Assembly: GCA_963718895.1 (NCBI GenBank)
Contig: CAVRAG010000008.1
Coordinates: 1,120,001-1,184,000 of the forward strand
DNA from: an uncultured Nitrososphaerota archaeon
GTDB lineage: Archaea; Thermoproteota; Nitrososphaeria; Nitrososphaerales; Gagatemarchaeaceae
Direction: 5' to 3'
Length of the DNA stretch: 64,000 nt
The position numbers and the translations under genes were made by a program. The number at the start of each line of letters is the position of its first letter. Position 1 is the stretch's first letter. This document shows, piece after piece, positions 1,387 to 60,782 of this stretch. The notes beneath the pieces are model-generated. The model searched no databases and was not told where the DNA came from. It saw only the letters and a list, made by a program, of their open reading frames with translations.

Positions 1387-1476
1387 TCTATTGCACTAAA
1401 GAGGCTGGTCGCGGGCACCTAAACTTAAACGTTTTACAGAACAGAAAATGCAAGAAAAGTTGATGGAAGGGAATGG

Positions 1477-1593
1477 GTGCCGGCACTTGGACTTCGCGAG
1501 AGCTCTCGCACCTCACTAACACCCAAGCGACGTGTGGTTTGACGTCTGGGTTCGGAATGAGACCAGGTCGGACCCACACGCTATGGCCGGCTG
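1477..1593 (-). rRNA. rrf: 5S ribosomal RNA (stand-alone)
   Basis: Minus strand reads GCCGGCCATAGCGTGTGGGTCCGACCTGGTCTCATTCCGAACCCAGACGTCAAACCACACG...GTGCCGGC: terminal GCCGGC helix, conserved CATTCCGAAC loop C, ~115 nt. Ends are approximate. Confidence 0.93.
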
Positions 1594-1704
1594 AGGAAGC
1601 CGTCCTGGCGCGGCTAGATTAACCTTTCCAATCTGCCGAATCCCGTGAGCACAACGGTCGAAGCGCCCAAACGCATAAGAGCAGAAAAGTCTCCCGGAGT
1701 GGGC

Positions 1705-4931: not shown

Positions 4932-5675
4932 CTAATCCTTCAGAAGTTTCTGTAGATATTTGTAGTTCTTCTTCGCTGATTCAGCCATGCTCCCCTTGTG
5001 GGGGAAGTCGACTTCGACCATGATCCATCCTTTGTACTTGGCTTTCTTTAGCGCTCGCGCCACCGCCGGCATGTCTACCACGCCCTCGCCCAGGTCGACG
5101 AAGTCCTTGTCGTAGTCTATCTTGGCAGGGTCAACGTGCTCCCTGAGGTCCTTGAGGTGCACGAGCACGATCCTGCTCTTGTACTTCGCTATGAACTTGG
5201 GAAGGTCTATCCTCAGGGCTTCGAGGTGGGCCGAATCGAAGCAGATCCCGGCGTCCGAGGCCTTGAGGAGGGCGTCCAGCTGGCGGAGGTTCTCGGCATT
5301 GCTGCGGACGTGAGGGTGAACGGCAATCTTCATCCCCTTCTTCCCGAACGCGACCGTGAGCGCCTTCGTCACCTTGGCGGCGCTCTTGTCATCCTTCTCG
5401 AAGAGGCACAGCCACCCCGACTCGGCACCCATCTTCTTCGCGACGTCGGCCATGTCCGTCGTCGTCTCATTCAGGGCCATAGAGACGACCTCCAGGCCCA
5501 CCTTCTTTGCGAGCTTCTTGACCTGGCCCGGATTCCTCTTGAGGACCTCCGGCATCACCGCGTACTCTATGCCGACGCCTTCGTAGCCGGCGTCCTTGAT
5601 CGAGCCAAGTATCTCGCTGAACTGCTTGACGTCCTTTATGTCGCCCCATCCGAGGGCCGCGCACGATATTTTCAT
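4932..5675 (-). CDS. Sugar phosphate isomerase/epimerase (IolE-like TIM barrel)
   Basis: VHPH, CFDSAH, VHLKD, DLGEGVVD and WIMVEVD metal-binding motifs; convergent with the inositol dehydrogenase-like gene. Confidence 0.85.
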   Translation of the reverse strand: MKISCAALGWGDIKDVKQFSEILGSIKDAGYEGVGIEYAVMPEVLKRNPGQVKKLAKKVGLEVVSMALNETTTDMADVAKKMGAESGWLCLFEKDDKSAAKVTKALTVAFGKKGMKIAVHPHVRSNAENLRQLDALLKASDAGICFDSAHLEALRIDLPKFIAKYKSRIVLVHLKDLREHVDPAKIDYDKDFVDLGEGVVDMPAVARALKKAKYKGWIMVEVDFPHKGSMAESAKKNYKYLQKLLKD

Positions 5676-43230: not shown

Positions 43231-44478
43231 CTACGCATTGGTACTGCTGTACCAAGTCGCAGTGAACGTGTTGGAGCTACTTACCGCTCCTTCATTCACA
43301 TTGATCGTCCCGGTTCCTGGAGGACAACCGGAAGTGGGATTGCACATGACGTTGGGCCAGTACCACCCATTACTATATGGGGTGTATATTCCTGGAAACG
43401 GAGTCGAACAGCTACTTCCTGTAGTGTAGCATATGTACGCGCTTGAGAACGCAACTGTGCTGAACTCAGGCAGGTGAGTGTAGCTGCCGCTTCGTGACGC
43501 TCTCTCGACAATCCATTGGCCGAACTGAGGCCCAGGGGAGAAAGACGAATAGGTTTGAGTTACTCCATTTCCTCCTGAGCCGCATCCGGTGGCGTTTGTT
43601 GTATCGATTGCATTAGCGAACCAGCTTGTATTTGACCCGCCATTGTAAGCGGCGCTATCTACGGCACCATCAATGGTATCGCCTGAGCTAACCGTTGCGC
43701 ACTGCGTCAGGGTGCTCGAACCACTCGTGTCGAATTCATACCAGGTGAAGTAACTACTGCCGGTAGATCCACCCGATGGACAACTGCTAGCAGTGCAGTA
43801 GATCTGAGACATTGAGCCTGCTTGAACAATGTGATTGTCTCCTCCAGACAGAGCATCTGTGATTCCTGGCCAGACCGCCAAGTCACAGTAAGTGTTGTGG
43901 CATTCATTATTGGAGGCTTCAGTTACCGCTGGAACGCTCCAAGTGGCATCGGCGACATACACGGCTGGAAAGCTCATGGAACCTGGAGCAGCTCCAGCCA
44001 TAGTGTAGCCTGCCCAGTTCGCGAGATATTGCGTCGAACCGCTTGCGCCTAAGCTGGGTTGCGTCGCCACCCCGAGAACTTGGGTTAGAGTCGGATTCTC
44101 CTTCAGCACGAGATTGCCTGCGGTACCATTGGGAAATGTGATGACATAGACTACATTCACCGATGTAACGTTGACGCTCAGGGCTCTGTTGAATACAAAT
44201 GTTTCAAATACGCTGTTGAACATCAGCCTCGAAGTCAAGCTATACGCTTGAAAGGATGAAGTTGCGGATGCCAATGACGTTGCGGCAAGTTGGTCCACAC
44301 CGCTCTCGATCTTGTTCATCGTAGCCAAGATGCTTTGCACGTCGGCGTGGCTATAGCCATTTGGGTCAACCGAGGTCTGGGCGCTGACAATAGCAATTGG
44401 AGAGACGGTTGCCGTTACCGAGACCCCAAGAATGACTAGAAGAAACACTGAACGAATTGCATGCATAAGACCAGCCAT
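43231..44478 (-). CDS. G1 family (eqolisin) glutamic endopeptidase, secreted
   Basis: Signal and pro-region, NWAGY, WSVP, VWPGI, catalytic IVQAG, WYE and catalytic WIVER. Confidence 0.8.
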   Translation of the reverse strand: MAGLMHAIRSVFLLVILGVSVTATVSPIAIVSAQTSVDPNGYSHADVQSILATMNKIESGVDQLAATSLASATSSFQAYSLTSRLMFNSVFETFVFNRALSVNVTSVNVVYVITFPNGTAGNLVLKENPTLTQVLGVATQPSLGASGSTQYLANWAGYTMAGAAPGSMSFPAVYVADATWSVPAVTEASNNECHNTYCDLAVWPGITDALSGGDNHIVQAGSMSQIYCTASSCPSGGSTGSSYFTWYEFDTSGSSTLTQCATVSSGDTIDGAVDSAAYNGGSNTSWFANAIDTTNATGCGSGGNGVTQTYSSFSPGPQFGQWIVERASRSGSYTHLPEFSTVAFSSAYICYTTGSSCSTPFPGIYTPYSNGWYWPNVMCNPTSGCPPGTGTINVNEGAVSSSNTFTATWYSSTNA

Positions 44479-44654: not shown

Positions 44655-45518
44655 TCAGGTGGCTGTATGGATGAGGTTTAGGACCTTCTTTGTTCTGTCT
44701 AGGACGCGCATGCACATCCTGCCGACTTGCTGAGGGCTGTTCGAGGCTGCGTAGGCGGCTATGTAGTTCCAGCTGAAGTTGTCCGCTGGTCTCCCGTAGA
44801 GCCTGGCGAGGGTCGCTGCGACTAGCTGGGCGATGGTCTCGGCTTCGGGTTCCTGTCCGTGGTCTGTCTTTGGCTCGAACGACCGATGGATGGCGTGGGC
44901 AAGCTCATGAAAGAAGACATCGTGGTCTTCCGTTGCCAGAAGGATCGTCTTGCTTACGTGGTCTGTGGCGCCGTAGATTCCTGGGGCCAGTCGCTCGTAC
45001 CGGACTTTCATGCCGAACCTCTCGGCAACCTCCATGAGGGGAGGCGGGCTTCTTGGCTGGAAGATGGGGAGCGGCGGTCCCTGCGTGTCCTCGAAGCGAA
45101 AGACTGGGACGGGCATGAACCCCACGAGGACGTCCGCGAACTCCTCACGTTCCCCTTCATGCTCGTCCGAGGCCTTCCGCTTGACCCTCTTCATGACTGG
45201 TCCTAGTATGTAGAGCGCTTTGGCGCCCTTGCTGACCGAGCGTCCCGCTTCCTGCCACTGCCTGAAACCCCTGGCATCCGCCGTTCCAGCCAGTAGCATC
45301 AGGAGCTGATTTCCGAAGGACCACTTCGAGGAAGGTCTTGCAGAGCTGTTGATCAGAGCTTTTGCGCACAGGTCCGGGAGTTGCTTCGACGAGAAGAGCT
45401 GGACTATCTTCTCGAGTTCCGAGTTTGCTCGTTCTCTCCAAGGTGTTTGGACTGGTGCAGCTGGTGTCTCTTGCGTGCATGGCTCGACAGCTTGCGCTGC
45501 CTGTCCGTTGGCTGACAC
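44655..45518 (-). CDS. ardC: ArdC-like ssDNA-binding antirestriction protein
   Basis: WSFGNQLL...GFRQWQEAGRSVSKGAKALYIL...PVFRFEDTQG (ArdC N-domain) plus HELAH...EAE zincin domain. Confidence 0.8.
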   Translation of the reverse strand: MSANGQAAQAVEPCTQETPAAPVQTPWRERANSELEKIVQLFSSKQLPDLCAKALINSSARPSSKWSFGNQLLMLLAGTADARGFRQWQEAGRSVSKGAKALYILGPVMKRVKRKASDEHEGEREEFADVLVGFMPVPVFRFEDTQGPPLPIFQPRSPPPLMEVAERFGMKVRYERLAPGIYGATDHVSKTILLATEDHDVFFHELAHAIHRSFEPKTDHGQEPEAETIAQLVAATLARLYGRPADNFSWNYIAAYAASNSPQQVGRMCMRVLDRTKKVLNLIHTAT

Positions 45519-45536: not shown

Positions 45537-46034
45537 CTACTGCTGTGTTCCGTCGGCGGGGAACCTCTTCAGGAACTTGTCCTTGATCCTGTACCCGTGG
45601 TCGCCAACGACTATCTCCTCGCCGGCCTTGAGTCTGTCAATGAATCCGCCGGCACCCTTCAGCTCGGGAAGGAGAGCCCCTTCGCGGTCCATGTAGAAGG
45701 TCCACTCGCCTCCTCCGTTGGCGTACTCCTTCCACGGGCGCTTGTCGAGCAGGGCAGCGTCCACTGTTGACGGTGCTGGTTGGTTGCTGGAAGGGCTGTT
45801 CTTCTCGGGTGTAGGATGGCTTTCGCCGTTGAACCTCTGCCTGCCGAGGACGTAGACGATGTTGCTGAACTGCCTGTCGGTGTCGTTGGTGTACTTCTCG
45901 AGCACCTTTACGAGGATGAAGCCCTGCTTAAGCAGGTCGTTCGCCGCTTCCGGCGTGGGTGCCTCCCTGATCTCCGTGATTCGCGAGTATGGTGTTTCCA
46001 TTCTTCTTCGCCTCCCTGCACTCTTGTCAGACAT
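45537..46034 (-). CDS. Hypothetical protein in the TFB-ArdC operon
   Basis: Start overlaps the TFB stop; ends 18 bp before ardC. Confidence 0.65.
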   Translation of the reverse strand: MSDKSAGRRRRMETPYSRITEIREAPTPEAANDLLKQGFILVKVLEKYTNDTDRQFSNIVYVLGRQRFNGESHPTPEKNSPSSNQPAPSTVDAALLDKRPWKEYANGGGEWTFYMDREGALLPELKGAGGFIDRLKAGEEIVVGDHGYRIKDKFLKRFPADGTQQ

Positions 46035-47004
46035 GCCCTCCTTGGGCCGGCCCGCATTTAACGGGCCGAACCTGCGGTCCTCCTGGAGTCACGAACTCCT
46101 CGTTCAGCCTCCGGCTGCAGTACTCCCTGACGGTATACTCGCGTATCCCGAGTGTTTCCGCCGCCTCTCTCTGCGTGAAGGTCTTGGGGCGCATCGCCAA
46201 GGACGCCAGGTAGACAGATCCTGCTGCGACGGTCCTTGGGTTGAAGCCGTTCGGCTCCGCTGCGGAAGACGCGAGCTCCTTCGAGCGCTCGAAGAGGGTC
46301 GTGAAGTACTGCTTCGGGTCTGCTTCGGACTTCCTCAGCCGCTCGGCAACCCTCTCGCTGGATTGCAACCTGCCGATGGCGGCCCTCACGAAGTCGTCCT
46401 TGCTGGGATGGGGGAGATGCATCCCGGACTCGAGGCCTAACTTCAGCAGGTCAGACTTGCGGACCCTGTAGCCCGCGTCGGTGTAGGCCTTCAGGACCTC
46501 CCTGTGGCTGATGTGCACGATGGCAGCCGACCTGCAGGCGAAGAGGAGCGAGTACGCCGATATCGAAGGGATCGTGGCTTTGTAGGACTCCCTTTGGGTG
46601 AGGAGCCTCCTCGCCGTGATGTCGGCAGCCTGCGCGATTCTCTTGGGGAGGGACAGCCTCTCGGCTATCCTGTTCGTCAGCATCGAGCACGTCGGCATCG
46701 GTCCGCCTCGCCCGACGATGTTCGGCATCAGCTTCGCCCACCCGAAGGCGGGGCCCTTCAGGGAGGAGGCGCTCTCCGTGTCCGCGACTATGTACGAGCC
46801 AAGGGGCTCGCTCTTGCTCACGGATGGCGCCGTCGACCCGTCCTCCCGCGTGTAGTCCGCCCTGCTCACGACGATCCCGCAGAAGGAGCACGTGAGCTCC
46901 GTCCGTTCCTCTCCCGCGTAGACGAGGCCTTCCCTGCACTCAGGGCACCTGCCCAGGATGCTGTACTCCTCGTTCGCGGCCAGCTTCGTCCGTCCACTCT
47001 TCAT
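46027..47004 (-). CDS. Transcription initiation factor IIB (TFB) homologue, element-encoded
   Basis: CPEC...CSFCG Zn ribbon, PLGS, two cyclin folds, PRTVAAGSVYLA...TQREAAETLGIREYTVRE. ATG at 47004. Confidence 0.8.
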   Translation of the reverse strand: MKSGRTKLAANEEYSILGRCPECREGLVYAGEERTELTCSFCGIVVSRADYTREDGSTAPSVSKSEPLGSYIVADTESASSLKGPAFGWAKLMPNIVGRGGPMPTCSMLTNRIAERLSLPKRIAQAADITARRLLTQRESYKATIPSISAYSLLFACRSAAIVHISHREVLKAYTDAGYRVRKSDLLKLGLESGMHLPHPSKDDFVRAAIGRLQSSERVAERLRKSEADPKQYFTTLFERSKELASSAAEPNGFNPRTVAAGSVYLASLAMRPKTFTQREAAETLGIREYTVREYCSRRLNEEFVTPGGPQVRPVKCGPAQGGHV

Positions 47005-47051
47005 GAATTCCTTGAACCCCTTGCATGTTTTTCGGTCTCCTGCCTTTCGTC

Positions 47052-47550
47052 CTGGAATGCTCCCGGTGGTTCTACGACCGGCGTAAGCGCTCCAGCTTCT
47101 CGTGCTCGATGCCGCGGATGATTTCAGGAAGAGATGGCGAAAAGCAGAGGCTTCACTTGGTCCCCGTCCGGGATCGCATGGGCGCATAATAATTGGCCCG
47201 ACGTGGTCTGTCTAGCCGGTCCTCAAGTCGCAGCTTCGTCTCTGCCCAGTGGTTGGGTAGAAACTATTGGATAATGGCTGCGGCCCGGACCGGTCAAGGA
47301 ACGGGGGTGAAGCTTCCGCTTCCGACACTCTCCTGAAGGCCGATGGAGGAGAAGTTGTTTCGCATCCTTCTGGGTGGACTGATGGCAACTGTATGCCCAG
47401 AGGATGGCCGTTGGACCCGGATACTTCCGTCCGGATGGGAAACGGTCAACCAAAGACTGCGCTCATCGTCATATCGAAGAATCGGATGAGGCGTCACGGG
47501 TATCCAGTTTTCTCTCCCTTACGGCTTGCGAACAATGGTGTTCGATGGCA
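47052..47550 (+). other. Extensively folding non-coding region (ssDNA promoter/origin or structured RNA)
   Basis: Nested stems from 47123 to 47337 plus four flanking hairpins; nearly all non-Watson-Crick pairs are G-T on the + strand. Confidence 0.6.
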
Positions 47551-47646
47551 CACGCTAGTGTCGAAACTTCAGATGCATGCCGAAATCAGAGAGAAAGATA
47601 GAATACGACGTCTGAGGCTCTGTCAGTATTTAACACGGGCCGGGGC

Positions 47647-47785
47647 ATGTTGACATCCGGGAATGGACGTTGACATCCAAGGACGGCAAAATGTCAACAT
47701 CTCGAGCCGATTTGACAACGTCAGACTGTCCAATGTCAACACGGAGGATGGCATGTCAACATGAGATTGCCAAAGATGTCAACAT
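47647..47785. repeat. Array of 7 near-palindromic ATGT(C/T)(A/G)ACAT boxes
   Basis: Starts at 47647, 47667, 47691, 47710 (degenerate), 47733, 47753 and 47776; spacing 19-24 bp. Confidence 0.85.
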
Positions 47786-47822
47786 TGACCGTCCTTAAGA
47801 GTCCGAGACCTCGTATCAACGG

Positions 47823-48305
47823 ATGAATCCCGCGGAGGCGGTCTTTCTGTACCTGCCGATCCCATACTGGGCTGCGTTTCTATTGCTGCTTTACAGGCAC
47901 GGCCTGTCAAGGCTGACGCATCCGGTGAGGGATAACGGCAGCCTGAGGAACTGGTGGGCCATCCTGAGCTACCTGGGGCTCCTCGACGCAGGGACGCGCA
48001 GGCCGAGCAGGAAGAAGGAAATCCTCCCCTACCTTTTCTATCTCTCGATTTCGGCAGCTGCGAGCCTGTCGTGGACCTACAGGGTATTCCCGCTCATCTG
48101 GTATTACTTAATCATCGTCCAAGGAATCTCCGGCATCGTCCTGACGGCCGCGACCATGCAGTACCTTGGTTCTCCTCCCAGAAGGCGATACGTCGATGTG
48201 CTCAGGTATCCGCGGCTGGGATCGAGGTTGAGGCACCTTGGTAGAATCCCAGAGGACAGGCCCGAGGTTGAGCCGACCGATGAATCTCAGGAGGGTGCGA
48301 AATGA
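47823..48305 (+). CDS. Membrane protein, first gene of the rightward transfer-region operon
   Basis: Three TM helices; 4-bp overlap with the next gene. Confidence 0.6.
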   Translation: MNPAEAVFLYLPIPYWAAFLLLLYRHGLSRLTHPVRDNGSLRNWWAILSYLGLLDAGTRRPSRKKEILPYLFYLSISAAASLSWTYRVFPLIWYYLIIVQGISGIVLTAATMQYLGSPPRRRYVDVLRYPRLGSRLRHLGRIPEDRPEVEPTDESQEGAK

Positions 48306-49420
48306 CCTCAAATCAGGGCCAAAAGGAGAAGGACGCCAAGAAACGGGTCCGCTTCTTCAACGTCTCCCTGAGGAACGGGATCGTCATGTCAACCCCGGCG
48401 TACGAGGAGAGGCAGACCTTTGTCGCGCACCTCATCCGCGCCCTTGAGACGTCGAACCCAGACTTCGCCTGGGTCCAGTTCCTGTTCTTGAGGTCCGACT
48501 ACGGCGCCGATCTGATCCGGCTCAAGAACTCGATTCACAGGGCCAAGGTCGCGATAGAGCAGCCCTCCCTGGACCTCATCAGCGGAGAGGAGCAGGACAG
48601 GAAGCAGCTCTACAGGGACTACTACAGGCGGGCGGATTCGAGGATGAAAAAAGTGGATGAAATCGTCACGAAGCCTACGATTACGATGGCTATCCAGGGG
48701 ATGTGGGTGAGCGACGAGCCGGACTCGGTCTACACCCTCCCGTTCGACCACTGCAACGATGAGCATGACAGCCTGGCGCTATTCCGCTACCGAGACCCTA
48801 GGATGCTCCTCGAGCTCGTCGACCGGAGGATGGTCGTCAACATTTCGGAATACCTTGACCGATACACCAAATCGAGGCTCGAACCCCCTTCGTTCCTCGT
48901 CACGCCGGAGGAGCTGCAGTCGTACGTCCACCTGCCCGCGGGCGAGACAGCGGCTTCCCTCCGCTCGCTGGAAGGCGGGACCTCAACCCGGGCGTTCATC
49001 CTGGCGAACCTCGCGGGTGGTGAGGCGGATTCCAGCCTCCACGAAGTCTGCTCGAGGCTCGTGAGGCTGGCCGCGGTGCCGAAGATGGAGAAGGCGCTCG
49101 AAGACATCTCGGTCCAGCCTCTCGCCCATCTCGCATCGTCGACGGTGAGGACGTTCGAACTGGTCTACTCGGGTGGGAAGACCGACATTCTCCTCTCCGC
49201 CGAGACGGTCGAGGACATGAGGAAGTACACAGGGCTACTCGGCCTCGTCTATGGTGGCCTGAAGTTCGAGAGGGCCGAGCCCCTGCCCGCATTCATGAGG
49301 GAGCTGCCCGTAGTCATGGGCCTCCTCTCGGCAGACCTAGAAAAGGAGCGGGCCGCAGCCAACACCGAAACTCCGGTCATAGGAATAGACCCCGATCCAC
49401 TGTCCGGGCCCAGCTCCTAG
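48302..49420 (+). CDS. Hypothetical conjugation-region protein (natural stop probably 49340)
   Basis: 372-aa ORF; WVQFLF and FLVTPEELQSYVHLP resemble segments N-terminal to VirD4-like ATPases (inference). The tail overlaps a convergent gene. Confidence 0.6.
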   Translation: MTSNQGQKEKDAKKRVRFFNVSLRNGIVMSTPAYEERQTFVAHLIRALETSNPDFAWVQFLFLRSDYGADLIRLKNSIHRAKVAIEQPSLDLISGEEQDRKQLYRDYYRRADSRMKKVDEIVTKPTITMAIQGMWVSDEPDSVYTLPFDHCNDEHDSLALFRYRDPRMLLELVDRRMVVNISEYLDRYTKSRLEPPSFLVTPEELQSYVHLPAGETAASLRSLEGGTSTRAFILANLAGGEADSSLHEVCSRLVRLAAVPKMEKALEDISVQPLAHLASSTVRTFELVYSGGKTDILLSAETVEDMRKYTGLLGLVYGGLKFERAEPLPAFMRELPVVMGLLSADLEKERAAANTETPVIGIDPDPLSGPSS

Positions 49421-51079: not shown

Positions 51080-53506
51080 GTGTCCCGCACCATCGACTAT
51101 GAGGACATGATGTTCCACGCCCTCTTCATCGGGTCGACCGGCGCTGGAAAGACCAACGCCCTTCTCTACTGGCTACTAGGACTCTTCTCCGGCCGAAAAG
51201 ATGCGGCCCTGGTCCTTATCGACCCGCACGGGGATGCCGCGCTCGACCTCGTCCGCCACATTCCCGAGGCTGAGAGAGACAGGATTGCCATTCTCGACCC
51301 TAACTTCGTCTCGTTCGGGCTCAATCCTCTTTCGCTCCCCCAAGGGGTGGAAATCGGCGACAGGGTCCAGGTGCTCCAGACTCAGGTCGAGGAGCTATCG
51401 GCCCTCCTCTCAGACGTCTTCAACACCGACGCGTCGACCGCCCCACGCCTGATGTGGATCTTCAAGGGCGCGCTGTATTACCTCTACACCCTGGACGACA
51501 ACCCGACCTTCAAGGACCTCTACAGAATCCTGGTGGACTTCATCTCCCTGCCGAAGGAGATGATAGAGAGGATGCTCAGGACCAAGGACCTCAAGGACGA
51601 GATAATCCGGAGCACTATAGACGCCATCTCGAAGCTCCAGAAGGACGCCTTCGCGCCCGTCGTGAACAGGATCTCGAACTTCGTCCTCCCTCCGCAGTCG
51701 ATGACCTCGCGGACCTTCTGCGCCCGCACGAGCAAGCTCGACTTCGACGAGATGACGACGCCCGGGAGGCTCACGATCTTCAGGATAACGAAGTCGCTGC
51801 CCTATGACTTCCGGAGGCTCATCTCCGCTTCCATAGTGATGAGGTTCTACTTCGAGGTGGAGAAGCGGGCCGCGAAGCTAGAGAGGGCCGGAGAGACGCC
51901 GTCCGCGAGGACCCCGATCATCCTTGCGGTCGACGAGTTCCAGAACATAAGCGACCTGAAGCTGCTCGACACCATCCTCTCCGAGTCGAGGAAGTACGGT
52001 CTCTATCTCTGGATCGTGAACCAGAACATCAGGCAGATACGGGAAGAGCTCTACAGCGCGATATGCGGGAACGTCGGGCCGATATTCTGCTTCAGGGTGG
52101 GGCCGGACGACGCCTCGAAGATGTCCGAGCTCATCTCCCCGCGCTCGAGCGACGAGGTCAGGAAGGCGCTCATCTCCCTGCCAGACTACACCTGCGTCGT
52201 CAGGAAGAGGCCTCACGGCGAGGACGTCGCGAGCAAGCCGCTGCTTCTAGAGCCGTTCCCCAAAGTCAGGGAGCCCCTGTGCGAGATGAAGGAAGTCATC
52301 GACTACATGAAGAACGAGATGGAGGAGAGGTACGGCGGGGCGGAAGAGGCGACCGACCTCGTCTACAAGAGCTTCTACGACCAGATCACGGGGTCGAGGG
52401 GCGACGACACCCACGACAACTCGAGGGTCCCCTTCATGCCGGTCCACTGGAAGATACTCACGACGGGATACCTCAAGGTCCTCTCTGACGAGTACTCCAT
52501 CGAGTTCTCGCGCATCAGGTCTGAGCTGTACCACAAGTATTCCTGGCAGACGTCGACCGTCCAGCAGGCGCTCAACGACCTCGTGAACACCGGCTACCTC
52601 ACACAGACCTTCGCCCGCCAGGAGTACGTGATGAAGGGCAAGGATGTCTACGGGAACCCGATAATGGTCCCTCCCGACCCGTCGGTGAAGGACGACATGG
52701 AGCGGGCCAAGACGGTCGTGTACAGCCTGACCCCCAGAGCAATGGACTGGTTCAAGATGAAGGTGGGCCCCTCCAAGATGGGAGACCCGAAGCACGGGCG
52801 TGTAATAGAAAAGCTGCTGAAGGAGGACTACTGGCCTCTGGGGTACTACTGCGTGGTTGACTGGGGCGAGACGAGCCTGGAGAGGCCCGACATCGCCGTG
52901 CTAAAGCCCGCCCCCAAGACGGTCAAGGACAAGCTGGGCAACGACCAGAGGATATCGAACCCGTACGCGTGGGACTACACGACGGCGACAGCCGTGGAGA
53001 TCGAGATGTCGCCCCTGAAGAGCAAGGAGCAGGTGCTCAGGAACTACCGGAAGAACAAGGGGGTCTACGAGCAGATCAGGTTCGTGGTCACCTCGGAGAA
53101 CCACGCGCAGCAGCTCTTGCAAATCCTCGGCGAGGAGGGGACGGCGGACCCCGTCAAGTACAGGGTGGACCTGATCGAGTTCGAGAGCCTGAACACGATT
53201 GAACCAAGACCCCAAGAAGAGAGCAAAGAGCCAGAGGAGCCGGCGAGGACCAATCCTCAGCTGAATCCCGAAGATAGGATTCTCTCTTACATCAAGGAAC
53301 ACGGCTTCACGGGTCGAGAGGACATTGTGCAGAAGTGCAGAGAAGCGGGAATCGAGATTGGACCCAGGCAGGTCTCGAGGTATCTCAAGGTCTTGACCGA
53401 GAAAGGGCTACTGCGAAGGGAAGGCAAGCGGTACGTGCCACCAGATTCATCGATGAAACCGGAGCGTCAGGACACTCTGGGACCCGAAGAGGCTTCCAGC
53501 TCTTGA
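51080..53506 (+). CDS. VirD4/TraG-like coupling ATPase fused to wHTH, PD-(D/E)xK-like and HTH domains
   Basis: HALFIGSTGAGKT, LIDPHGD, AVDEFQN, SESRKYG, VNQ, FRVGPDDA; C-terminal RPDIAV...AVEIEMS and RQVSRYLKVLTEKGLL. Confidence 0.85.
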   Translation: MSRTIDYEDMMFHALFIGSTGAGKTNALLYWLLGLFSGRKDAALVLIDPHGDAALDLVRHIPEAERDRIAILDPNFVSFGLNPLSLPQGVEIGDRVQVLQTQVEELSALLSDVFNTDASTAPRLMWIFKGALYYLYTLDDNPTFKDLYRILVDFISLPKEMIERMLRTKDLKDEIIRSTIDAISKLQKDAFAPVVNRISNFVLPPQSMTSRTFCARTSKLDFDEMTTPGRLTIFRITKSLPYDFRRLISASIVMRFYFEVEKRAAKLERAGETPSARTPIILAVDEFQNISDLKLLDTILSESRKYGLYLWIVNQNIRQIREELYSAICGNVGPIFCFRVGPDDASKMSELISPRSSDEVRKALISLPDYTCVVRKRPHGEDVASKPLLLEPFPKVREPLCEMKEVIDYMKNEMEERYGGAEEATDLVYKSFYDQITGSRGDDTHDNSRVPFMPVHWKILTTGYLKVLSDEYSIEFSRIRSELYHKYSWQTSTVQQALNDLVNTGYLTQTFARQEYVMKGKDVYGNPIMVPPDPSVKDDMERAKTVVYSLTPRAMDWFKMKVGPSKMGDPKHGRVIEKLLKEDYWPLGYYCVVDWGETSLERPDIAVLKPAPKTVKDKLGNDQRISNPYAWDYTTATAVEIEMSPLKSKEQVLRNYRKNKGVYEQIRFVVTSENHAQQLLQILGEEGTADPVKYRVDLIEFESLNTIEPRPQEESKEPEEPARTNPQLNPEDRILSYIKEHGFTGREDIVQKCREAGIEIGPRQVSRYLKVLTEKGLLRREGKRYVPPDSSMKPERQDTLGPEEASSS

Positions 53507-58167: not shown

Positions 58168-58836
58168 GTGTCAGAGTCTATCTGGTGGGCTGACCTTTCG
58201 TGGTGGGAAAGAAAATCGCTTCCCCTTGGGTTCATCACACTCTCCCTTCGACAGTTAGGGACGATGCTATTCTCATTCGCGGCTGCGTTCGTAATCTCTC
58301 TACCCTTCGAGTTTCCGATAGCGGGAGCAACTTTCGGGGGAAGAGCGGCGATCTTCTGCCTCGTCTTCGGGATAGGCTACATGATCTCGAGCAGGCGGGT
58401 GAAGCTGCTTCCAATCGAACTTCAGGCATTCTATTTTCTCCGGACGGAAGGGCTAACCAAGGCGAAATTAGCCCTGTTAGGGTCTAAGAGGCACGAGATT
58501 GACCCTCCTGGTGACGCGGGGCTGCAATCCGGGTTGCAGGTAGTCTCCGTGGAGGATTTCAAGAATCCTGTACCCCTTACAGTCTCGGACGCGGTGAAGA
58601 ACATTCAGAAGGAGACGAGGGTGCTGCTCTTCCTAGACGAGCAAGCAAGGGGAGAAGACGTCGTTTCGCCGCAGAAGCCGAGATACAGACTGTCCTACGT
58701 CCCACTTCAGGCTGATGTGGGCAAGCATCTGCTCACGGTCAGGCTGGACGGCTCGGTCGAGCCGCTGGTTTCGTTCGAGCTTCTCGTGCAAGGAAGGACG
58801 ATGGATGTCGTCGAGTCGATTACGAGGGTAAAGTGA
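58168..58836 (+). CDS. PrgI/VirB3-like membrane protein
   Basis: LSLRQL plus two TMs; 4-bp overlap with the VirB4-like gene. Confidence 0.55.
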   Translation: MSESIWWADLSWWERKSLPLGFITLSLRQLGTMLFSFAAAFVISLPFEFPIAGATFGGRAAIFCLVFGIGYMISSRRVKLLPIELQAFYFLRTEGLTKAKLALLGSKRHEIDPPGDAGLQSGLQVVSVEDFKNPVPLTVSDAVKNIQKETRVLLFLDEQARGEDVVSPQKPRYRLSYVPLQADVGKHLLTVRLDGSVEPLVSFELLVQGRTMDVVESITRVK

Positions 58837-60782
58837 AGATGTTGTTCAAGAAGAAGCCGTCAGCAGGGCTGCGCCCATCCGTCCTCTACGAGCTAAGGTC
58901 TGTCAACCTGGCAAACCTGCCGGAGAAGGAGCAGGGGTCTGTGCTCGACAGGTTCGCATCCTTCCTCGACTCTTTAACCGAGCCGATCACGTTCCACATA
59001 TTCCAGGACGAGAGGGAGGTGGAGGCCATCGGAGCGCTCTACGAGATTCCCTTCAAGCGCTTCTTCCTTGAGACGCACTCCCAGCAGGATTCGCTGGTCC
59101 AGAAGCTCGGGACGAGGATGGTGCGCGTCCACGCCCTTCCCCTGGTCAAACCGGTAAGAGCGAACTCGAGGTACATCATCGACTCCGAAGGCCATTATGT
59201 CCAGACCTACTGTATCAGTCGGCTCGGGGGAACCCTCGTACCGGGCTACTTGGCGGAACTCTACCAGATAGCCTACTGTCTCATGCTGGACATTGAGCCG
59301 ATTGACATCTACGAGGCGAAAAAGATGGTGAGGTCCTACGCCCGTTCAGTCGGTTCAAGGCTTCTCCTGAGGCAGACCGAGGGAAGGTCTCTCGACCCGG
59401 AGGAGCAGGTGGAGTTCCAGAGAGCGTCAGGTGCGGCCCAACTAATCGGGGCCGGCAAGGAGAGGCTGTTCAGGACCCGCATCCGAATCGTCCTGCGCGT
59501 GAACGGGTACAAGGAGCTCGTGGAGGCGAGGAAGAAGCTGAGGCAGCTCGTCGGGGGGATGGTGGGGCAGGTGGACTCTCCGGCGCACCTGCAGGAAGCC
59601 CTCCTCTCCGGAGTAGGCCCTAAGTATGCCACCGGAAGGTGGTTCTTCATTACGACTTCGGGAGCGCTGAGTCTCTTCCCGTTCTGCGGGCTGGACGTGG
59701 TCGACCCCTCCGGAGTCTTTCTGGGCCAGAACCTCCAGACCGGGAACGCCATCCTCTACGATGTGTTCGAGAAGGAGAATTACAACGTCGCCCTGATGGG
59801 ACAGAGCGGGTTCGGAAAGAGCACCTTCGTGAAGACCTACCTCGGCAGGATGCTGAACCAGGACAAGGACATGATGGTCTTCCTCTTCGACAGCATAGTG
59901 AGGCCGGAGTATGCCCTCGGCCCTGATGGCAGGTACGAGACGTCGTTCGCGGGCATGACGGGTTGCAAGGTCCAGCGCTTCGGCGGCGAGAAGGGGGCCG
60001 GTCTGGACCCATTCGCCGTATTTCCCACCAGGCGTGTCGCGGCAAACTTCCTTGCGAGCGTGGCGAAGGTCGAAAACGACCAGAATCTGCTCGCCGACCT
60101 CTACCTGACCGCAGAGAAGGCCTCCAACGTGAACGAGCTCATCGAACTGGCGACGGGCGACCTGAAGAAGCGCCTGCTGGCGAACCTCCCTCCATATCGG
60201 TTCCTCTTCGAGGGCGAGATGGAGATCTATCCGCGGATGGTCTTCGTCCTCTACGACCTCCCTCCAGGGGAGCAGAGGGACGCGGCAGCCTTCCTGGCGC
60301 TCTCGGCCATCTGGAAGAAGATCCAGGACACCGACACGATCCCGATCTCGAGGAGGAAGGCGATAGTGGTGGACGAGGGATGGTCGCTCGTCGAGATCAA
60401 CCCGAGGACGGGCAGACCGTATTTCCCTCTGGCGGTCGAATACGTGCCCGAGATCGCGAGGACGGGAAGGCACTACAACACCGCCTTCGTTGTCGCTACC
60501 CAGCTCGTATCCGACTTCATGGGGAGGGGAGGAGTCTATGGTCCGGGGAGGATAATCATCGAGAGCTGCTCCACGAAGATCGTGCTGAAGCAGGACCAGG
60601 CCGCGTCTCAGGTCCTCAAGGAGGCGTTCAACCTCAGCGACGGCGAGGAGAAGTTCATCGTCAACGCAAAGATCGGTCAGGGAATCTTGGTAACGCAGGA
60701 AGGCCGCATACCTTTCTATAACTTCCTCAGCGACGAGGAGAGGAGGCTCTTCACGACAAAACCGAAGGAAGTTACTGCTTGA
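58833..60782 (+). CDS. VirB4-like conjugative transfer ATPase
   Basis: NYNVALMGQSGFGKS, VVDEGW, IARTGRHYN, VATQ, LKQD, GQGIL. Confidence 0.88.
   Translation: MKMLFKKKPSAGLRPSVLYELRSVNLANLPEKEQGSVLDRFASFLDSLTEPITFHIFQDEREVEAIGALYEIPFKRFFLETHSQQDSLVQKLGTRMVRVHALPLVKPVRANSRYIIDSEGHYVQTYCISRLGGTLVPGYLAELYQIAYCLMLDIEPIDIYEAKKMVRSYARSVGSRLLLRQTEGRSLDPEEQVEFQRASGAAQLIGAGKERLFRTRIRIVLRVNGYKELVEARKKLRQLVGGMVGQVDSPAHLQEALLSGVGPKYATGRWFFITTSGALSLFPFCGLDVVDPSGVFLGQNLQTGNAILYDVFEKENYNVALMGQSGFGKSTFVKTYLGRMLNQDKDMMVFLFDSIVRPEYALGPDGRYETSFAGMTGCKVQRFGGEKGAGLDPFAVFPTRRVAANFLASVAKVENDQNLLADLYLTAEKASNVNELIELATGDLKKRLLANLPPYRFLFEGEMEIYPRMVFVLYDLPPGEQRDAAAFLALSAIWKKIQDTDTIPISRRKAIVVDEGWSLVEINPRTGRPYFPLAVEYVPEIARTGRHYNTAFVVATQLVSDFMGRGGVYGPGRIIIESCSTKIVLKQDQAASQVLKEAFNLSDGEEKFIVNAKIGQGILVTQEGRIPFYNFLSDEERRLFTTKPKEVTA

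What the first reader, a model, noticed from the sequence alone, without database searches (positions are those of the whole stretch)
47052..47550. ~500-nt strand-specific fold upstream of TFB-ArdC: candidate archaeal single-stranded-DNA (Frpo/ssi-like) promoter, or a new structured RNA
Seen, nested stems: TTCAGGA 47123-29 with TCCTGAA 47331-37; AAGCAGAGGCTTCAC 47142-56 with GTGAAGCTTCCGCTT 47307-21; CCCCGT 47162-67 with ACGGGG 47301-06; GCCGGTCC 47215-22 with GGACCGGT 47287-94; GTCGCAGCT 47227-35 with GGCTGCGGC 47276-84; TCTGCCCAG 47241-49 with TTGGGTAGA 47253-61. A side branch GGATCGC/GTGGTCT closes an ATAATAATT loop. Separate hairpins lie at 47052-95, 47363-406, 47406-47 and 47455-95. Almost all imperfect pairs are G-T on the + strand (A-C on the - strand), so the + strand is the folding molecule. 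The + strand is also the template for the leftward TFB-ORF-ArdC operon, which has no TATA in the ~45 bp before its ATG. Established: in bacterial F/ColIb plasmids, folded ssDNA promoters (Frpo/ssi) on the transferred strand drive early expression of anti-defence genes. Inference: this may be an archaeal equivalent, possibly read with the element's own TFB. Alternatives are a single-strand origin for primer synthesis or a + strand ncRNA.
Basis: partly seen in the sequence, partly recalled or inferred. Interest (0 to 1): 0.82.

Follow-up and report, generated by a model that had tools for sequence, protein, structure and literature searches.

The report
Structured leader RNA of archaeal conjugative element
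The stems are real and conserved, but they most likely belong to a long folded RNA leader in front of a mobile element's own transcription-factor operon in soil archaea, not to a single-stranded-DNA promoter.

Summary
The fold at 47052-47500 is real. Both strands fold better than all 100 shuffles with RNA and DNA parameters. In 56 distinct homologues, 50 of 142 pairs show compensatory changes, against 35.4 in shuffles (0 of 500 reach it).

The claim that only the + strand folds does not hold. At pairs that are Watson-Crick in the window, homologues show G:T 275 times and A:C 230 times.

Context points to the minus strand, as an RNA. A conserved TATA-like motif (47626-47634) lies about 580 nt upstream. 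A conserved Shine-Dalgarno and start codon (47044-47024) close the block. The downstream gene differs between lineages while this block is kept. In one lineage all flanking genes run leftward. One hairpin carries GNRA tetraloops only on the minus strand. Contigs from RNA libraries bridge the fold and the TFB gene.

Best reading (about 0.6): a new, roughly 450-nt structured 5' leader of the element's TFB/ArdC operon, found in 20 of 97 genomes of one thaumarchaeal family. No Rfam family matches. The Frpo-like ssDNA promoter idea fails its main test, because no promoter element lies inside a stem. What the RNA does is unknown.

The parts
47626..47639 (-). Candidate promoter of the leftward transcript. 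GTATTTAAC reads GTTAAATAC on the minus strand and is TATA-like. The flank ACRCGGG is conserved on the side that is upstream for leftward transcription, which is the BRE position.
   Evidence: The motif lies to the right of the core in 35 of 40 distinct copies with at least 750 nt of flank. It is conserved in all lineages of A3 that reach it. In L045 it lies 32 nt past the stop of a minus-strand T4CP ORF, so only leftward firing makes sense there. Its role as a promoter is inferred; no transcription start was mapped.
47587..47607 (-). Conserved block CAGAGAGAAAGATAGAATACG. It lies around the predicted minus-strand transcription start (about 47604) and the first roughly 18 nt of the leader, which are pyrimidine-rich on the RNA.
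   Evidence: Conserved in A1 and A3 and in the g9 lineage. The start position is inferred from the usual archaeal spacing of about 24-27 nt from TATA to start (recalled knowledge).
47501..47586 (-). Variable part of the leader, with a small hairpin at 47524-47549.
   Evidence: Identity to the window is 58-95% in 6 comparisons. It is poorly alignable between lineages.
47455..47495 (-). Hairpin GCGCTCATC/GATGAGGCG.
   Evidence: Helices 17-18: 7 of 11 pairs have changes on both sides, for example CTCATC/GATGAG to CTTGCC/GGCAAG.
47406..47447 (-). Two-part hairpin. On the minus strand the inner stem (47417-22/47429-34) is capped by a GNRA-type tetraloop: GGAA in the window, the complement of 47425-47428.
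   Evidence: Among 24 distinct sequences, by my reading of the printed sequences, about 14 have a closed GNRA on the minus strand: C-GGAA-G, C-GUAA-G or A-GCAA-U. In the GCAA lineage the minus strand folds at -11.6 kcal against -3.8 for the plus strand. The plus-strand complements (UUCC, UUAC, UUGC) are not a known stable loop type (recalled).
47364..47405 (-). Hairpin CATCC.TCTGGG / CCCAGAGGATG.
   Evidence: Helix 14: 93.4% paired. Pair 47364:47405 is AT in 37 sequences and GC in 12.
47096..47354 (-). Closed multi-branch domain. The long-range helix 47096-47108/47341-47354 encloses the stem 47123-47156/47307-47337, the helix 47162-69/47298-306, a three-way junction with side hairpin 47171-47209, and the arm 47215-47294. 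That arm ends in the optional hairpin 47241-47261.
   Evidence: Helices 3-13 hold 35 of the 50 pairs with compensatory change. The tip hairpin (38 model positions) is replaced by 6 nt in the g9 lineage while the rest is kept. This region is the basis of covariance model R1.
47052..47095 (-). Hairpin next to the ribosome-binding site.
   Evidence: Helices 1-2: 86.9% and 75.8% paired, and 4 of 16 pairs have changes on both sides.
47024..47044 (-). Shine-Dalgarno (GGCAGGAGACC on the minus strand, GGCAGGAGG in most homologues), a 9-nt spacer, and the ancestral ATG (47026-47024).
   Evidence: The CAT plus SD pattern is found in 46 of 49 distinct copies with at least 330 nt of left flank. The host 16S rRNA ends ...GGATCACCTCCT, which is complementary to GGAGG.
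46027..47004 (-). TFB-like gene, the first gene of the leftward operon in this lineage. It is followed by ORF165 (45537-46034) and ArdC-like (44655-45518).
   Evidence: Pfam TFIIB 7.7e-06 and Zn_Ribbon_TF 9.6e-04; ArdcN 1.8e-05. NCBIfam PRK00423 1.4e-09, below its cut-off.
47646..47790 (.). Iteron array, ATGTCAACAT/ATGTTGACAT in both orientations. It lies between the two divergent promoter-like motifs. It is context, not part of the fold.
   Evidence: Families D1, D3 and I4-I6, I11-I13. Other lineages carry different iterons at the same place: GTTGCCA, TGTTACCGG, TGGCACGAAC.
47795..47825 (+). TTAAGA, then 22 nt, then the ATG of ORF160. This is the candidate promoter of a leaderless rightward transcript.
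   Evidence: TTA[AT]GA followed by a start codon after 14-30 nt is found in 22 of 36 distinct copies. Its function is inferred.

Best explanation
The fold is the conserved core (about 47052-47500, roughly 450 nt) of a roughly 580-nt 5' leader RNA. The leader is transcribed leftward, on the minus strand.

Proposed layout (inferred, not mapped). Transcription starts from a TATA-like promoter at 47626-47634, at about 47604. It runs through three hairpins and a closed multi-branch domain. It ends in a Shine-Dalgarno and start codon at 47044-47024. These open the regulatory and establishment operon of an integrated conjugative element (TFB-like, ORF165, ArdC-like).

Shown here:
- The structure is conserved, with covariation.
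- It is not coding.
- It forms one conserved block with the ribosome-binding site and the first roughly 10 codons.
- It travels as a module in front of different genes.

Inferred:
- The minus strand is the functional molecule.
- The leader acts in cis to gate translation or elongation of the element's master regulator, probably by binding a protein or ligand.
- The GC-rich flank of the TATA motif could be a BRE read by the element's own TFB. This is speculation.

The effector and the switch are unknown.
For: 1. Conserved structure. 50 of 142 pairs show compensatory change, 0 of 500 shuffles reach that, and slid controls are far lower.
2. Not coding. All 36 homologues that are full over 47100-47500 carry indels that are not multiples of three.
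3. Ribosome-binding site. The SD and ATG are contiguous with the fold in 46 of 49 copies. The SD matches the host 16S 3' end.
4. Module behaviour. In lineages L006, L019, L020, L027, L039, L045, L056 and L073 the gene behind the same leader, SD and first codons is a conserved 54-aa ORF, and TFB lies about 1.45 kb further on.
5. Promoter motif. GTATTTAAC lies to the right of the core in 35 of 40 copies. In L045 it follows the stop of a minus-strand T4CP gene by 32 nt, so every flanking gene runs leftward there.
6. Separate rightward promoter. A TTAAGA-N22-ATG motif serves the rightward ORF160 in 22 of 36 copies, so the first motif is not needed for that gene.
7. Strand-specific loops. GNRA tetraloops (GGAA, GUAA, GCAA) with a closing pair appear on the minus strand only, in about 14 of 24 distinct versions of hairpin 47414-47437.
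8. Composition. Unpaired columns are 38% A when read on the minus strand and 24% A on the plus strand.
9. RNA libraries. Contigs from 4 metatranscriptome runs of 4 studies cover 46030-47460 and bridge the TFB start and the fold (46936-47115, 46986-47130, 47015-47222, 47124-47431). Almost nothing covers 47512-48270.
10. Introns. The second copy of the TFB gene carries two group II introns in the minus orientation. These need minus-strand transcription.
Against: - No transcription start, strand or RNA end was measured. The RNA-library data are unstranded contigs at depth 2-9, DNA carry-over is not excluded, and relatives' divergent flanks may simply fail to map.
- Wobble statistics do not favour the minus strand. 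G:T occurs 275 times and A:C 230 times at unbiased pairs.
- Several G:T pairs are conserved on the plus strand: 47228:47283 is TG in 42 and CG in 11; 47171:47209 and 47215:47294 are G:T in 98%.
- The plus strand has the lower free energy, and RNAalifold gives -92.2 for plus against -82.7 for minus.
- The consensus fold shows no consistent pairing that sequesters the SD, so the regulatory mechanism is a guess.
- The TATA-like motif has no A-rich BRE in either orientation, and 5 of 40 copies lack it.
- The fold is less conserved than the TFB coding sequence in 2 of 6 comparisons, L011 and L052.
Confidence: 0.6

Rival explanations
1. One reading: a single-stranded-DNA element on the + strand. After transfer or during replication the + strand folds and acts as a promoter or primer site (Frpo/ssi-like, or like the single-strand origin of rolling-circle plasmids). 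This would allow early expression of TFB and ArdC.
For: - The + strand folds well with DNA parameters (z -4.04, 0 of 100 shuffles).
- It is the template strand of the leftward operon.
- An ArdC-like gene lies in that operon.
- The near-equal G:T and A:C counts (275 and 230) are not what a typical single-strand RNA shows.
- The fold sits next to iterons that could mark an origin.
Against: - No TATA/BRE-like duplex lies inside a stem. The AT-rich 6-mers of the fold mostly lie in loops or in internal loops and junctions, and none forms a TATA-like box in a stem.
- Passages of PMC11541004 describe Frpo as promoter elements (-35, -10, UP) sitting in the folded structure and mimicking a double strand.
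- A conserved ordinary TATA-like motif and an SD account for expression without ssDNA.
- No relaxase or Rep family was found in 30 ORFs.
- Passages of PMC6563490 report no relaxase in thaumarchaeal ICEs and suggest dsDNA transfer.
- GNRA loops are an RNA motif and lie on the other strand.
- Frpo/ssi candidate regions were taken at 50-350 bp in that paper. This conserved fold is about 450 nt with a multi-branch domain.
Confidence: 0.12
2. A + strand non-coding RNA of roughly 470 nt (about 47045-47512). It would be antisense to the leader and perhaps part of a sense/antisense control pair like FinP and traJ.
For: - The + strand has the lower folding energy (-211.9 against -188.0).
- Conserved G:T pairs lie inside helices, for example 47228:47283.
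- A short T run at 47508-47511 could end such an RNA.
- Balanced wobble counts would fit if both strands were functional.
Against: - No conserved TATA-like motif lies to the left of the fold. That region is the SD, the start codon and coding sequence, and its AT-rich bits are not conserved.
- The T run is only TT in most homologues.
- Unpaired columns are T-rich, not A-rich, on this strand.
- There are no GNRA or UNCG loops on this strand in the hairpin examined.
Confidence: 0.1
3. A DNA-level element: an origin of replication or transfer, or a large protein-binding region. Its inverted repeats would be kept for cruciform extrusion or symmetric protein binding. It would work together with the neighbouring iterons.
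For: - The fold always lies within about 100-350 nt of an iteron array.
- There is no strand asymmetry in wobble pairs.
- CGGTCAA occurs twice, 151 nt apart.
Against: - Branched architecture with a three-way junction.
- An optional tip hairpin that can be lost.
- Compensatory changes that keep pairing but not sequence.
These are typical of single-strand folding, not of protein-binding sites.
- Iterons change completely between lineages while the fold is kept (iterons 45-68% identity, fold 81-95%).
Confidence: 0.08

Closest known systems
Frpo / ssi single-stranded-DNA promoters of F and ColIb-type plasmids (passages of PMC11541004 read; Masai and Arai 1997 seen only as a cited reference)
   Same: A long imperfect hairpin region beside anti-restriction genes in a conjugative element. 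The folded strand would be the template of those genes.
   Different: In Frpo the promoter elements sit in the stem and mimic duplex DNA. Here the stems are GC-rich and the AT-rich segments mostly lie in loops or junctions. The host is an archaeon, no relaxase was found, and the fold is larger and branched. A conventional TATA-like motif and an SD flank it.
traJ leader / FinP antisense control of F-like plasmids, and other leader-RNA controls of conjugation regulators (recalled knowledge, not read here)
   Same: A structured 5' untranslated region in front of the master transfer regulator, in a divergent promoter region of a conjugative element.
   Different: Those leaders are about 100 nt, bacterial, and have a defined antisense partner. 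Here the leader is about 580 nt with a roughly 450-nt conserved multi-domain fold, and no antisense promoter was found.
Large structured bacterial RNAs often carried by mobile elements: GOLLD, ROOL, HEARO, OLE (recalled; their Rfam models were part of the searches)
   Same: Size class (several hundred nt), many covarying helices, association with mobile DNA, unknown biochemical function.
   Different: No Rfam model matched. The best hits had E of 1.4 or more and were far below gathering scores. This RNA is archaeal and sits as a leader joined to a ribosome-binding site.
ColE1 RNA II pre-primer (recalled)
   Same: A structured transcript of about 550 nt next to replication control sequences of a mobile element.
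   Different: RNA II runs towards the origin and ends there. This transcript would run away from the iterons and into a protein-coding operon with an SD.
Riboswitch and T-box type cis-regulatory leaders (recalled)
   Same: A conserved structure between promoter and start codon, with highly conserved junction nucleotides (for example GGCCCGGACCGGTCAAGG, nearly invariant in A3 and A4).
   Different: No ligand, no expression platform and no terminator were identified. There is no A run of five or more on the + strand within the fold, that is, no U run on the minus-strand RNA. The size is two to four times that of typical riboswitches.

Membership tests
Frpo / ssi single-stranded-DNA promoter | Promoter elements lie base-paired inside the hairpin, so the folded single strand mimics a duplex promoter. 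| tested here: not met
   All 6-mers with at least 5 A/T in 47040-47515 were mapped on the supported structure. They mostly fall in loops or junctions: 0-3 of 6 positions are paired, except 47121 and 47258, which have 4 and are not TATA-like. The only conserved TATA-like motifs lie outside the fold, at 47626-47634 and 47795-47800.
Frpo / ssi single-stranded-DNA promoter | The element is transferred as single-stranded DNA by a relaxase-dependent system, and the fold lies on the transferred strand in the leading region. | tested here: inconclusive
   Pfam scans of 30 ORFs between 31 and 64 kb found a T4CP-like and a VirB4-like ATPase but no relaxase or Rep family. Passages of PMC6563490 report none in thaumarchaeal ICEs. 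Absence of a Pfam hit does not prove absence. ORF372 next to the T4CP gene stays unassigned.
Frpo / ssi single-stranded-DNA promoter | Sequence similarity to the known Frpo/ssi sequences. | not tested
Frpo / ssi single-stranded-DNA promoter | Only one strand folds or functions. | tested here: inconclusive
   Both strands beat all 100 shuffles with DNA and RNA parameters. G:T 275 against A:C 230 at unbiased pairs.
Any Rfam 15 family (4227 models, including riboswitches, group I/II introns, ribozymes, GOLLD, ROOL, HEARO, OLE) | A match at or above the family's gathering score. | tested here: not met
   The only window-wide hit is 5S rRNA at 1475-1594. In 46800-47900, both strands, E up to 10, there were three chance-level hits (13-19 bits against cut-offs of 38-60). 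Positive control: the same tool found group II introns in L013.
Structured cis-regulatory 5' leader RNA | Conserved secondary structure supported by covariation. | tested here: met
   50 of 142 pairs with compensatory change (shuffles 35.4, 0 of 500). 87.4% of cells paired, against 37-46% when partners are slid.
Structured cis-regulatory 5' leader RNA | Lies on the sense strand between the transcription start and the start codon of the regulated gene. | tested here: inconclusive
   The position between a conserved TATA-like motif and the SD/ATG, co-directional gene arrays in one lineage, and bridging RNA-library contigs fit this reading. No start site or strand was measured.
Structured cis-regulatory 5' leader RNA | The structure changes expression of the downstream gene. 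| not testable with these tools
   This needs reporter or probing experiments.
Protein-coding gene (for example ORF 47267-47653 +, 128 aa) | The reading frame is kept among homologues. | tested here: not met
   All 36 homologues that are full over 47100-47500 have at least one indel that is not a multiple of three. The indel spectrum has 126 of length 1 and 15 of length 2. There was no Pfam hit for the 128-aa ORF.
Sense/antisense RNA control pair (FinP/traJ type) | Promoters on both strands that give overlapping transcripts. | tested here: inconclusive
   A candidate leftward promoter was found. No conserved TATA-like motif for a + strand RNA lies to the left of the fold. Expression was not strand-resolved.

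The most novel reading that the evidence does not exclude
This is a new class of large, complex-folded archaeal RNA, about 450 nt, with a closed multi-branch domain and three hairpins. It is carried only by conjugative elements of Gagatemarchaeaceae-like Thaumarchaeota. It would work as a sensor or scaffold, riboswitch-like or ribonucleoprotein, that decides when the element's own TFB is made and so when transfer genes are switched on. It could act together with a promoter read by that same TFB. A still bolder variant that the data do not exclude: the complementary + strand of the same region also works as folded single-stranded DNA during transfer. That would explain why neither strand shows the usual wobble asymmetry.
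Probability: 0.25. Interest if true: 0.8.

Novelty: new variant of a known kind. Interest (0 to 1): 0.6.

Why it matters
Few large structured non-coding RNAs are known in archaea (recalled knowledge). My searches turned up none described for an archaeal conjugative element (one search was a syntax error). No Rfam family matches.

Thaumarchaeal ICEs all carry their own TFIIB/TFB homologue, according to passages of PMC6563490. How that factor is controlled is unknown. A leader this large, with 50 covarying pairs and nearly invariant junction sequences, placed directly in front of that operon, gives a concrete handle on how an archaeal mobile element times its regulatory operon. Probing, reporters and pull-downs could all be applied to it.

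The finding also corrects an attractive but unsupported idea. There is so far no evidence for Frpo-type single-stranded-DNA promoters in archaea.

Tried and rejected
- Rfam at gathering level and at E up to 10 gave nothing relevant.
- Deciding the strand from wobble pairs, folding energies, z-scores or RNAalifold gave contradictory or balanced results. I dropped this as a criterion.
- My first impression that loops are A-rich on the + strand was wrong. Counting gave T 38% and A 24% on +.
- I looked for a consistent pairing that would hide the SD, including candidate anti-SD CUCCUCC at 47346-47352 and the pyrimidine tract near 47590. Nothing in the consensus fold supports it.
- Pairing of the conserved first codons with the leader motif CCUUGA does not covary in the distant lineage (by eye). 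Rejected.
- Hammerhead-like and K-turn-like motifs considered by eye do not fit and have no Rfam support.
- Group II intron remnant: no domain V hit in the fold, while true introns nearby were detected.
- A scan of viral contigs with the core pattern gave 0 hits.
- RNA runs: 12 metatranscriptome runs from 10 studies hold only 4-10% of the sampled words. I draw no conclusion about habitat or expression level from them. The uncovered stretch 47512-48270 may only reflect divergence of relatives.
- ORF372, next to the T4CP gene, as a hidden relaxase: the AlphaFold model is poor (pLDDT 54.6). Foldseek against the PDB has a best E of 0.22, with weak VirB4-like rows. No conclusion.
- PHROGs and NCBIfam gave no function for ORF160, ORF165 or ORF372.
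- Supplementary files of papers were closed. Supporting data file 1 of PMC6563490 (ICE annotations) may list related elements, and I could not see it.
Full report
WHERE WE ARE. The window is G000:C8:1120001-1184000. Record titles of homologous contigs name Nitrososphaerota/Thaumarchaeota, among them 'Candidatus Gagatemarchaeum stordalenia'. The finding lies in an 800-nt gap between two gene groups.
- Leftward: a TFB-like gene (46027-47004; Pfam TFIIB 7.7e-06 and a Zn ribbon), ORF165, and an ArdC-like gene (ArdcN 1.8e-05).
- Rightward: ORF160, ORF372 and, further on, a type IV coupling protein (51080-53506; TraG-D_C, T4SS-DNA_transf) and a VirB4-like ATPase (58833-60782).
This is the gene set of a thaumarchaeal integrative-conjugative element. 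Passages of PMC6563490 describe such elements. They state that all carry a TFIIB homologue, that no relaxase was found, and that dsDNA transfer has been suggested.

THE OBSERVATION.
- The 499-nt stretch folds better than all 100 dinucleotide shuffles on both strands with both parameter sets.
- RNA: + -211.9 (z -3.34), - -188.0 (z -4.15). DNA: + -101.9 (z -4.04), - -89.1 (z -3.12).
- So the fold is more than chance, but energy does not single out a strand.

HOMOLOGUES.
- BLAST found a second copy 42.8 kb downstream in the same genome (89% identity). It also found copies in 6 of 36 other genomes of the family and in none of 24 genomes of other families of the order.
- A scan with a nearly invariant core pattern gave 28 loci in genome contigs (about half are chance hits in bacteria), 64 in metagenome contigs and 0 in viral contigs.
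- An nhmmer profile recognised the element in 80 of 109 loci then held. 56 distinct sequences were aligned as A3.
- A covariance model of 47140-47323 (R1, from 46 sequences) matched 20 of 97 genomes of the family, G000 included (3 of 10 genera), and 0 of 150 other genomes sampled from the class.
- Incomplete genomes cannot show absence.

COVARIATION. I tested a structure of 142 pairs on A3. The pairs come from the window's + strand fold, limited to helices that both strands predict or that alignments support.
- 87.4% of 6697 cells form standard pairs (shuffles 84.1%, 0 of 500; slid partners 37-46%).
- 50 pairs have changes on both sides (shuffles 35.4, 0 of 500; slid 21-26).
- 249 cells carry such changes (shuffles 97.7).
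- The measure 'further pair types' was not significant (104 of 500).
- Examples: 47230:47281 GC 38 / AT 14; 47364:47405 AT 37 / GC 12; 47241:47261 TA 19 / CG 14 / AT 3; the last hairpin changes CTCATC/GATGAG to CTTGCC/GGCAAG.
- In the g9 genus the tip hairpin 47241-47261 and its flanks (38 model positions) are replaced by 6 nt while everything else is kept. This is typical of a variable RNA extension.
- The region is not coding. All 36 full-length homologues have indels that are not multiples of three.
- No Rfam family matches.

WHICH STRAND? Across homologues this does not hold.
- At pairs that are Watson-Crick in the window, the other sequences show G:T 275, A:C 230 and other mismatches 520.
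- The + derived structure is 86% canonical on +. The - derived structure is 87% canonical on -.
- Conserved wobble positions exist for both strands. On +: 47228:47283, 47171:47209, 47215:47294, 47407:47446. On -: 47225/6:47286/5, 47146:47317.
- RNAalifold gives -92.2 (+) and -82.7 (-).
- I therefore set pair statistics aside and used other evidence.

EVIDENCE FROM CONTEXT.
1. The conserved block does not stop at the fold. It runs on through GGCAGGAGG, a 9-nt spacer and an ATG (47044-47024) into the first roughly 10 codons. This is seen in 46 of 49 copies with enough flank. The host 16S rRNA ends GGATCACCTCCT, so this is a proper Shine-Dalgarno for a minus-strand mRNA.
2. The gene behind it varies. 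It is TFB in the window's lineage. In eight other loci it is a conserved 54-aa ORF, with TFB about 1.45 kb further on. The leader, SD and first codons (M..V..[FI]LKSG) are kept. The block thus behaves as a portable expression module for whatever lies to its left.
3. A 9-nt motif GTATTTAAC (47626-47634), plus a conserved flank ACRCGG on its right side, is found to the right of the core in 35 of 40 copies, 30 of them at a fixed distance.
 - In L045 the motif lies 32 nt beyond the stop of a minus-strand T4CP ORF. All flanking genes run leftward there (ORF372, T4CP, motif, iterons, core, ORF54, TFB). L020, L039 and L073 have the same order by tblastn.
 - In that arrangement a TATA box can only serve leftward transcription.
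 - In the window's lineage the rightward ORF160 has its own TTAAGA 22 nt before its ATG, in 22 of 36 copies. The iterons therefore sit between two divergent promoter-like motifs.
4. Hairpin 47414-47437 carries GNRA tetraloops with a closing pair on the minus strand in three different sequence versions: C-GGAA-G, C-GUAA-G and A-GCAA-U. By my reading that is about 14 of 24 distinct sequences. In the GCAA lineage the minus strand folds at -11.6 kcal against -3.8 for the plus strand.
5. Unpaired columns are 38% A on the minus strand. This is the usual bias of structured RNAs (recalled knowledge).
6. Contigs of four metatranscriptome runs from four studies cover 46030-47460 and bridge the TFB start and the fold. 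These contigs are unstranded, of low depth and from relatives. They show only that such sequence occurs in RNA libraries as one continuous piece.
7. The second copy of the TFB gene holds two group II introns in the minus orientation.

WHAT IT IS, AND HOW SURE. I read the fold as the core of a roughly 580-nt structured 5' leader of the element's regulatory operon, with confidence about 0.6.
- Shown: conserved structure, non-coding, joined to the ribosome-binding site, modular.
- Inferred: minus-strand identity, the promoter, and a cis-regulatory role.
- The mechanism is open. There is no U run that could terminate within the leader, and no conserved SD-sequestering helix.
- My working guess is a protein- or ligand-binding platform that gates translation or stability of the TFB message.
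- The GC-rich flank of the TATA motif might be a BRE for the element's own TFB. That is speculation.

Frpo is defined by promoter elements sitting in the folded structure and mimicking a double strand (passages of PMC11541004).
- Here the AT-rich 6-mers of the fold mostly lie in loops or junctions.
- The conserved TATA-like motifs are outside the fold.
- No relaxase or Rep was found. ORF372 remains unassigned.
- The ssDNA idea keeps about 0.12, because no strand-resolved data exist and the wobble symmetry is odd for a one-strand RNA.
- A + strand ncRNA (0.10) lacks a promoter.
- A purely DNA-level element (0.08) fits poorly with branched, covarying helices.

CONSERVATION RELATIVE TO FLANKS. 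In six pairwise comparisons the fold is 81-95% identical. TFB coding sequence is 68-93%, ORF160 68-81% and the iterons 45-68%. The fold is at least as conserved as TFB in four comparisons and less in two, L011 and L052. This also shows recombination between the modules.

NOVELTY. Searches of the paper library found no description of this RNA. The terms were: Thaumarchaeota ICE; Gagatemarchaeaceae; archaeal conjugative leader RNA / untranslated region / transcription factor B.
- In PMC10640624 the words conjugati-, mobile, plasmid, non-coding and group II intron do not occur in the main text.
- I saw only the search listings and the passages named, not whole papers or supplements.
- I class it as a new variant of a known kind: a structured leader RNA of a mobile-element regulator, but archaeal, far larger, and without family relatives.

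Noticed in passing
window 47646-47790: An array of about 8 copies of ATGTCAACAT/ATGTTGACAT in both orientations lies between the two promoter-like motifs. Related elements carry quite different iterons at the same place (GTTGCCA/TGGCAAC, TGTTACCGG, TGGCACGAAC). In one lineage the array sits between the TATA-like motif and the fold. It is probably the operator, origin or centromere of an element-specific DNA-binding protein.
   Followed up: partly
window 47002-47026: Compared with all homologues, the window has one extra base near 47003. The conserved ATG (47026) is therefore out of frame with TFB and gives a 28-aa ORF, while a new in-frame ATG (47004) has appeared. RNA-library contigs of relatives lack this base (table 4). 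It may be a real frameshift or an assembly error.
   Followed up: partly
L013 4495-7430 and 7808-10743 (G000:C8, about 1203495-1209742, outside the window): The second copy of the element has its TFB gene split by two related insertions of 2.9 kb, about 80% identical to each other. Each has a 584-aa ORF and an Rfam group II intron match (RF00029, 57 bits), in the same orientation as the gene.
   Followed up: partly
L019 about 2074-2237, L020 about 5190-5353, L045 about 2392-2555 and others: A conserved 54-aa ORF (M..V.RFLKSGLGGDPRD...) directly follows the leader in other lineages. Its first residues resemble the N-terminus of the window-lineage TFB, which suggests recombination inside the leader/start module.
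   Followed up: partly
window 48302-49420: ORF372 always travels with ORF160 and the T4CP gene. It has no Pfam, PHROG or NCBIfam match. The AlphaFold model is poor (pLDDT 54.6) and has no significant PDB match.
   Followed up: partly
window 47243-47300 and 47394-47454: Two stretches 151 nt apart share TGCCCAG.GG.TGG ... CC.GGA ... CGGTCAA. This may be an old internal duplication of the RNA, or chance.
   Followed up: no
window 1475-1594 (-): A 5S rRNA gene (Rfam 73.5 bits). No tRNA gene was found in the whole window.
   Followed up: no
window 43231-44478 (-): A 415-aa ORF with a Peptidase_A4 domain (3.9e-10) lies just downstream of the ArdC-like gene.
   Followed up: no
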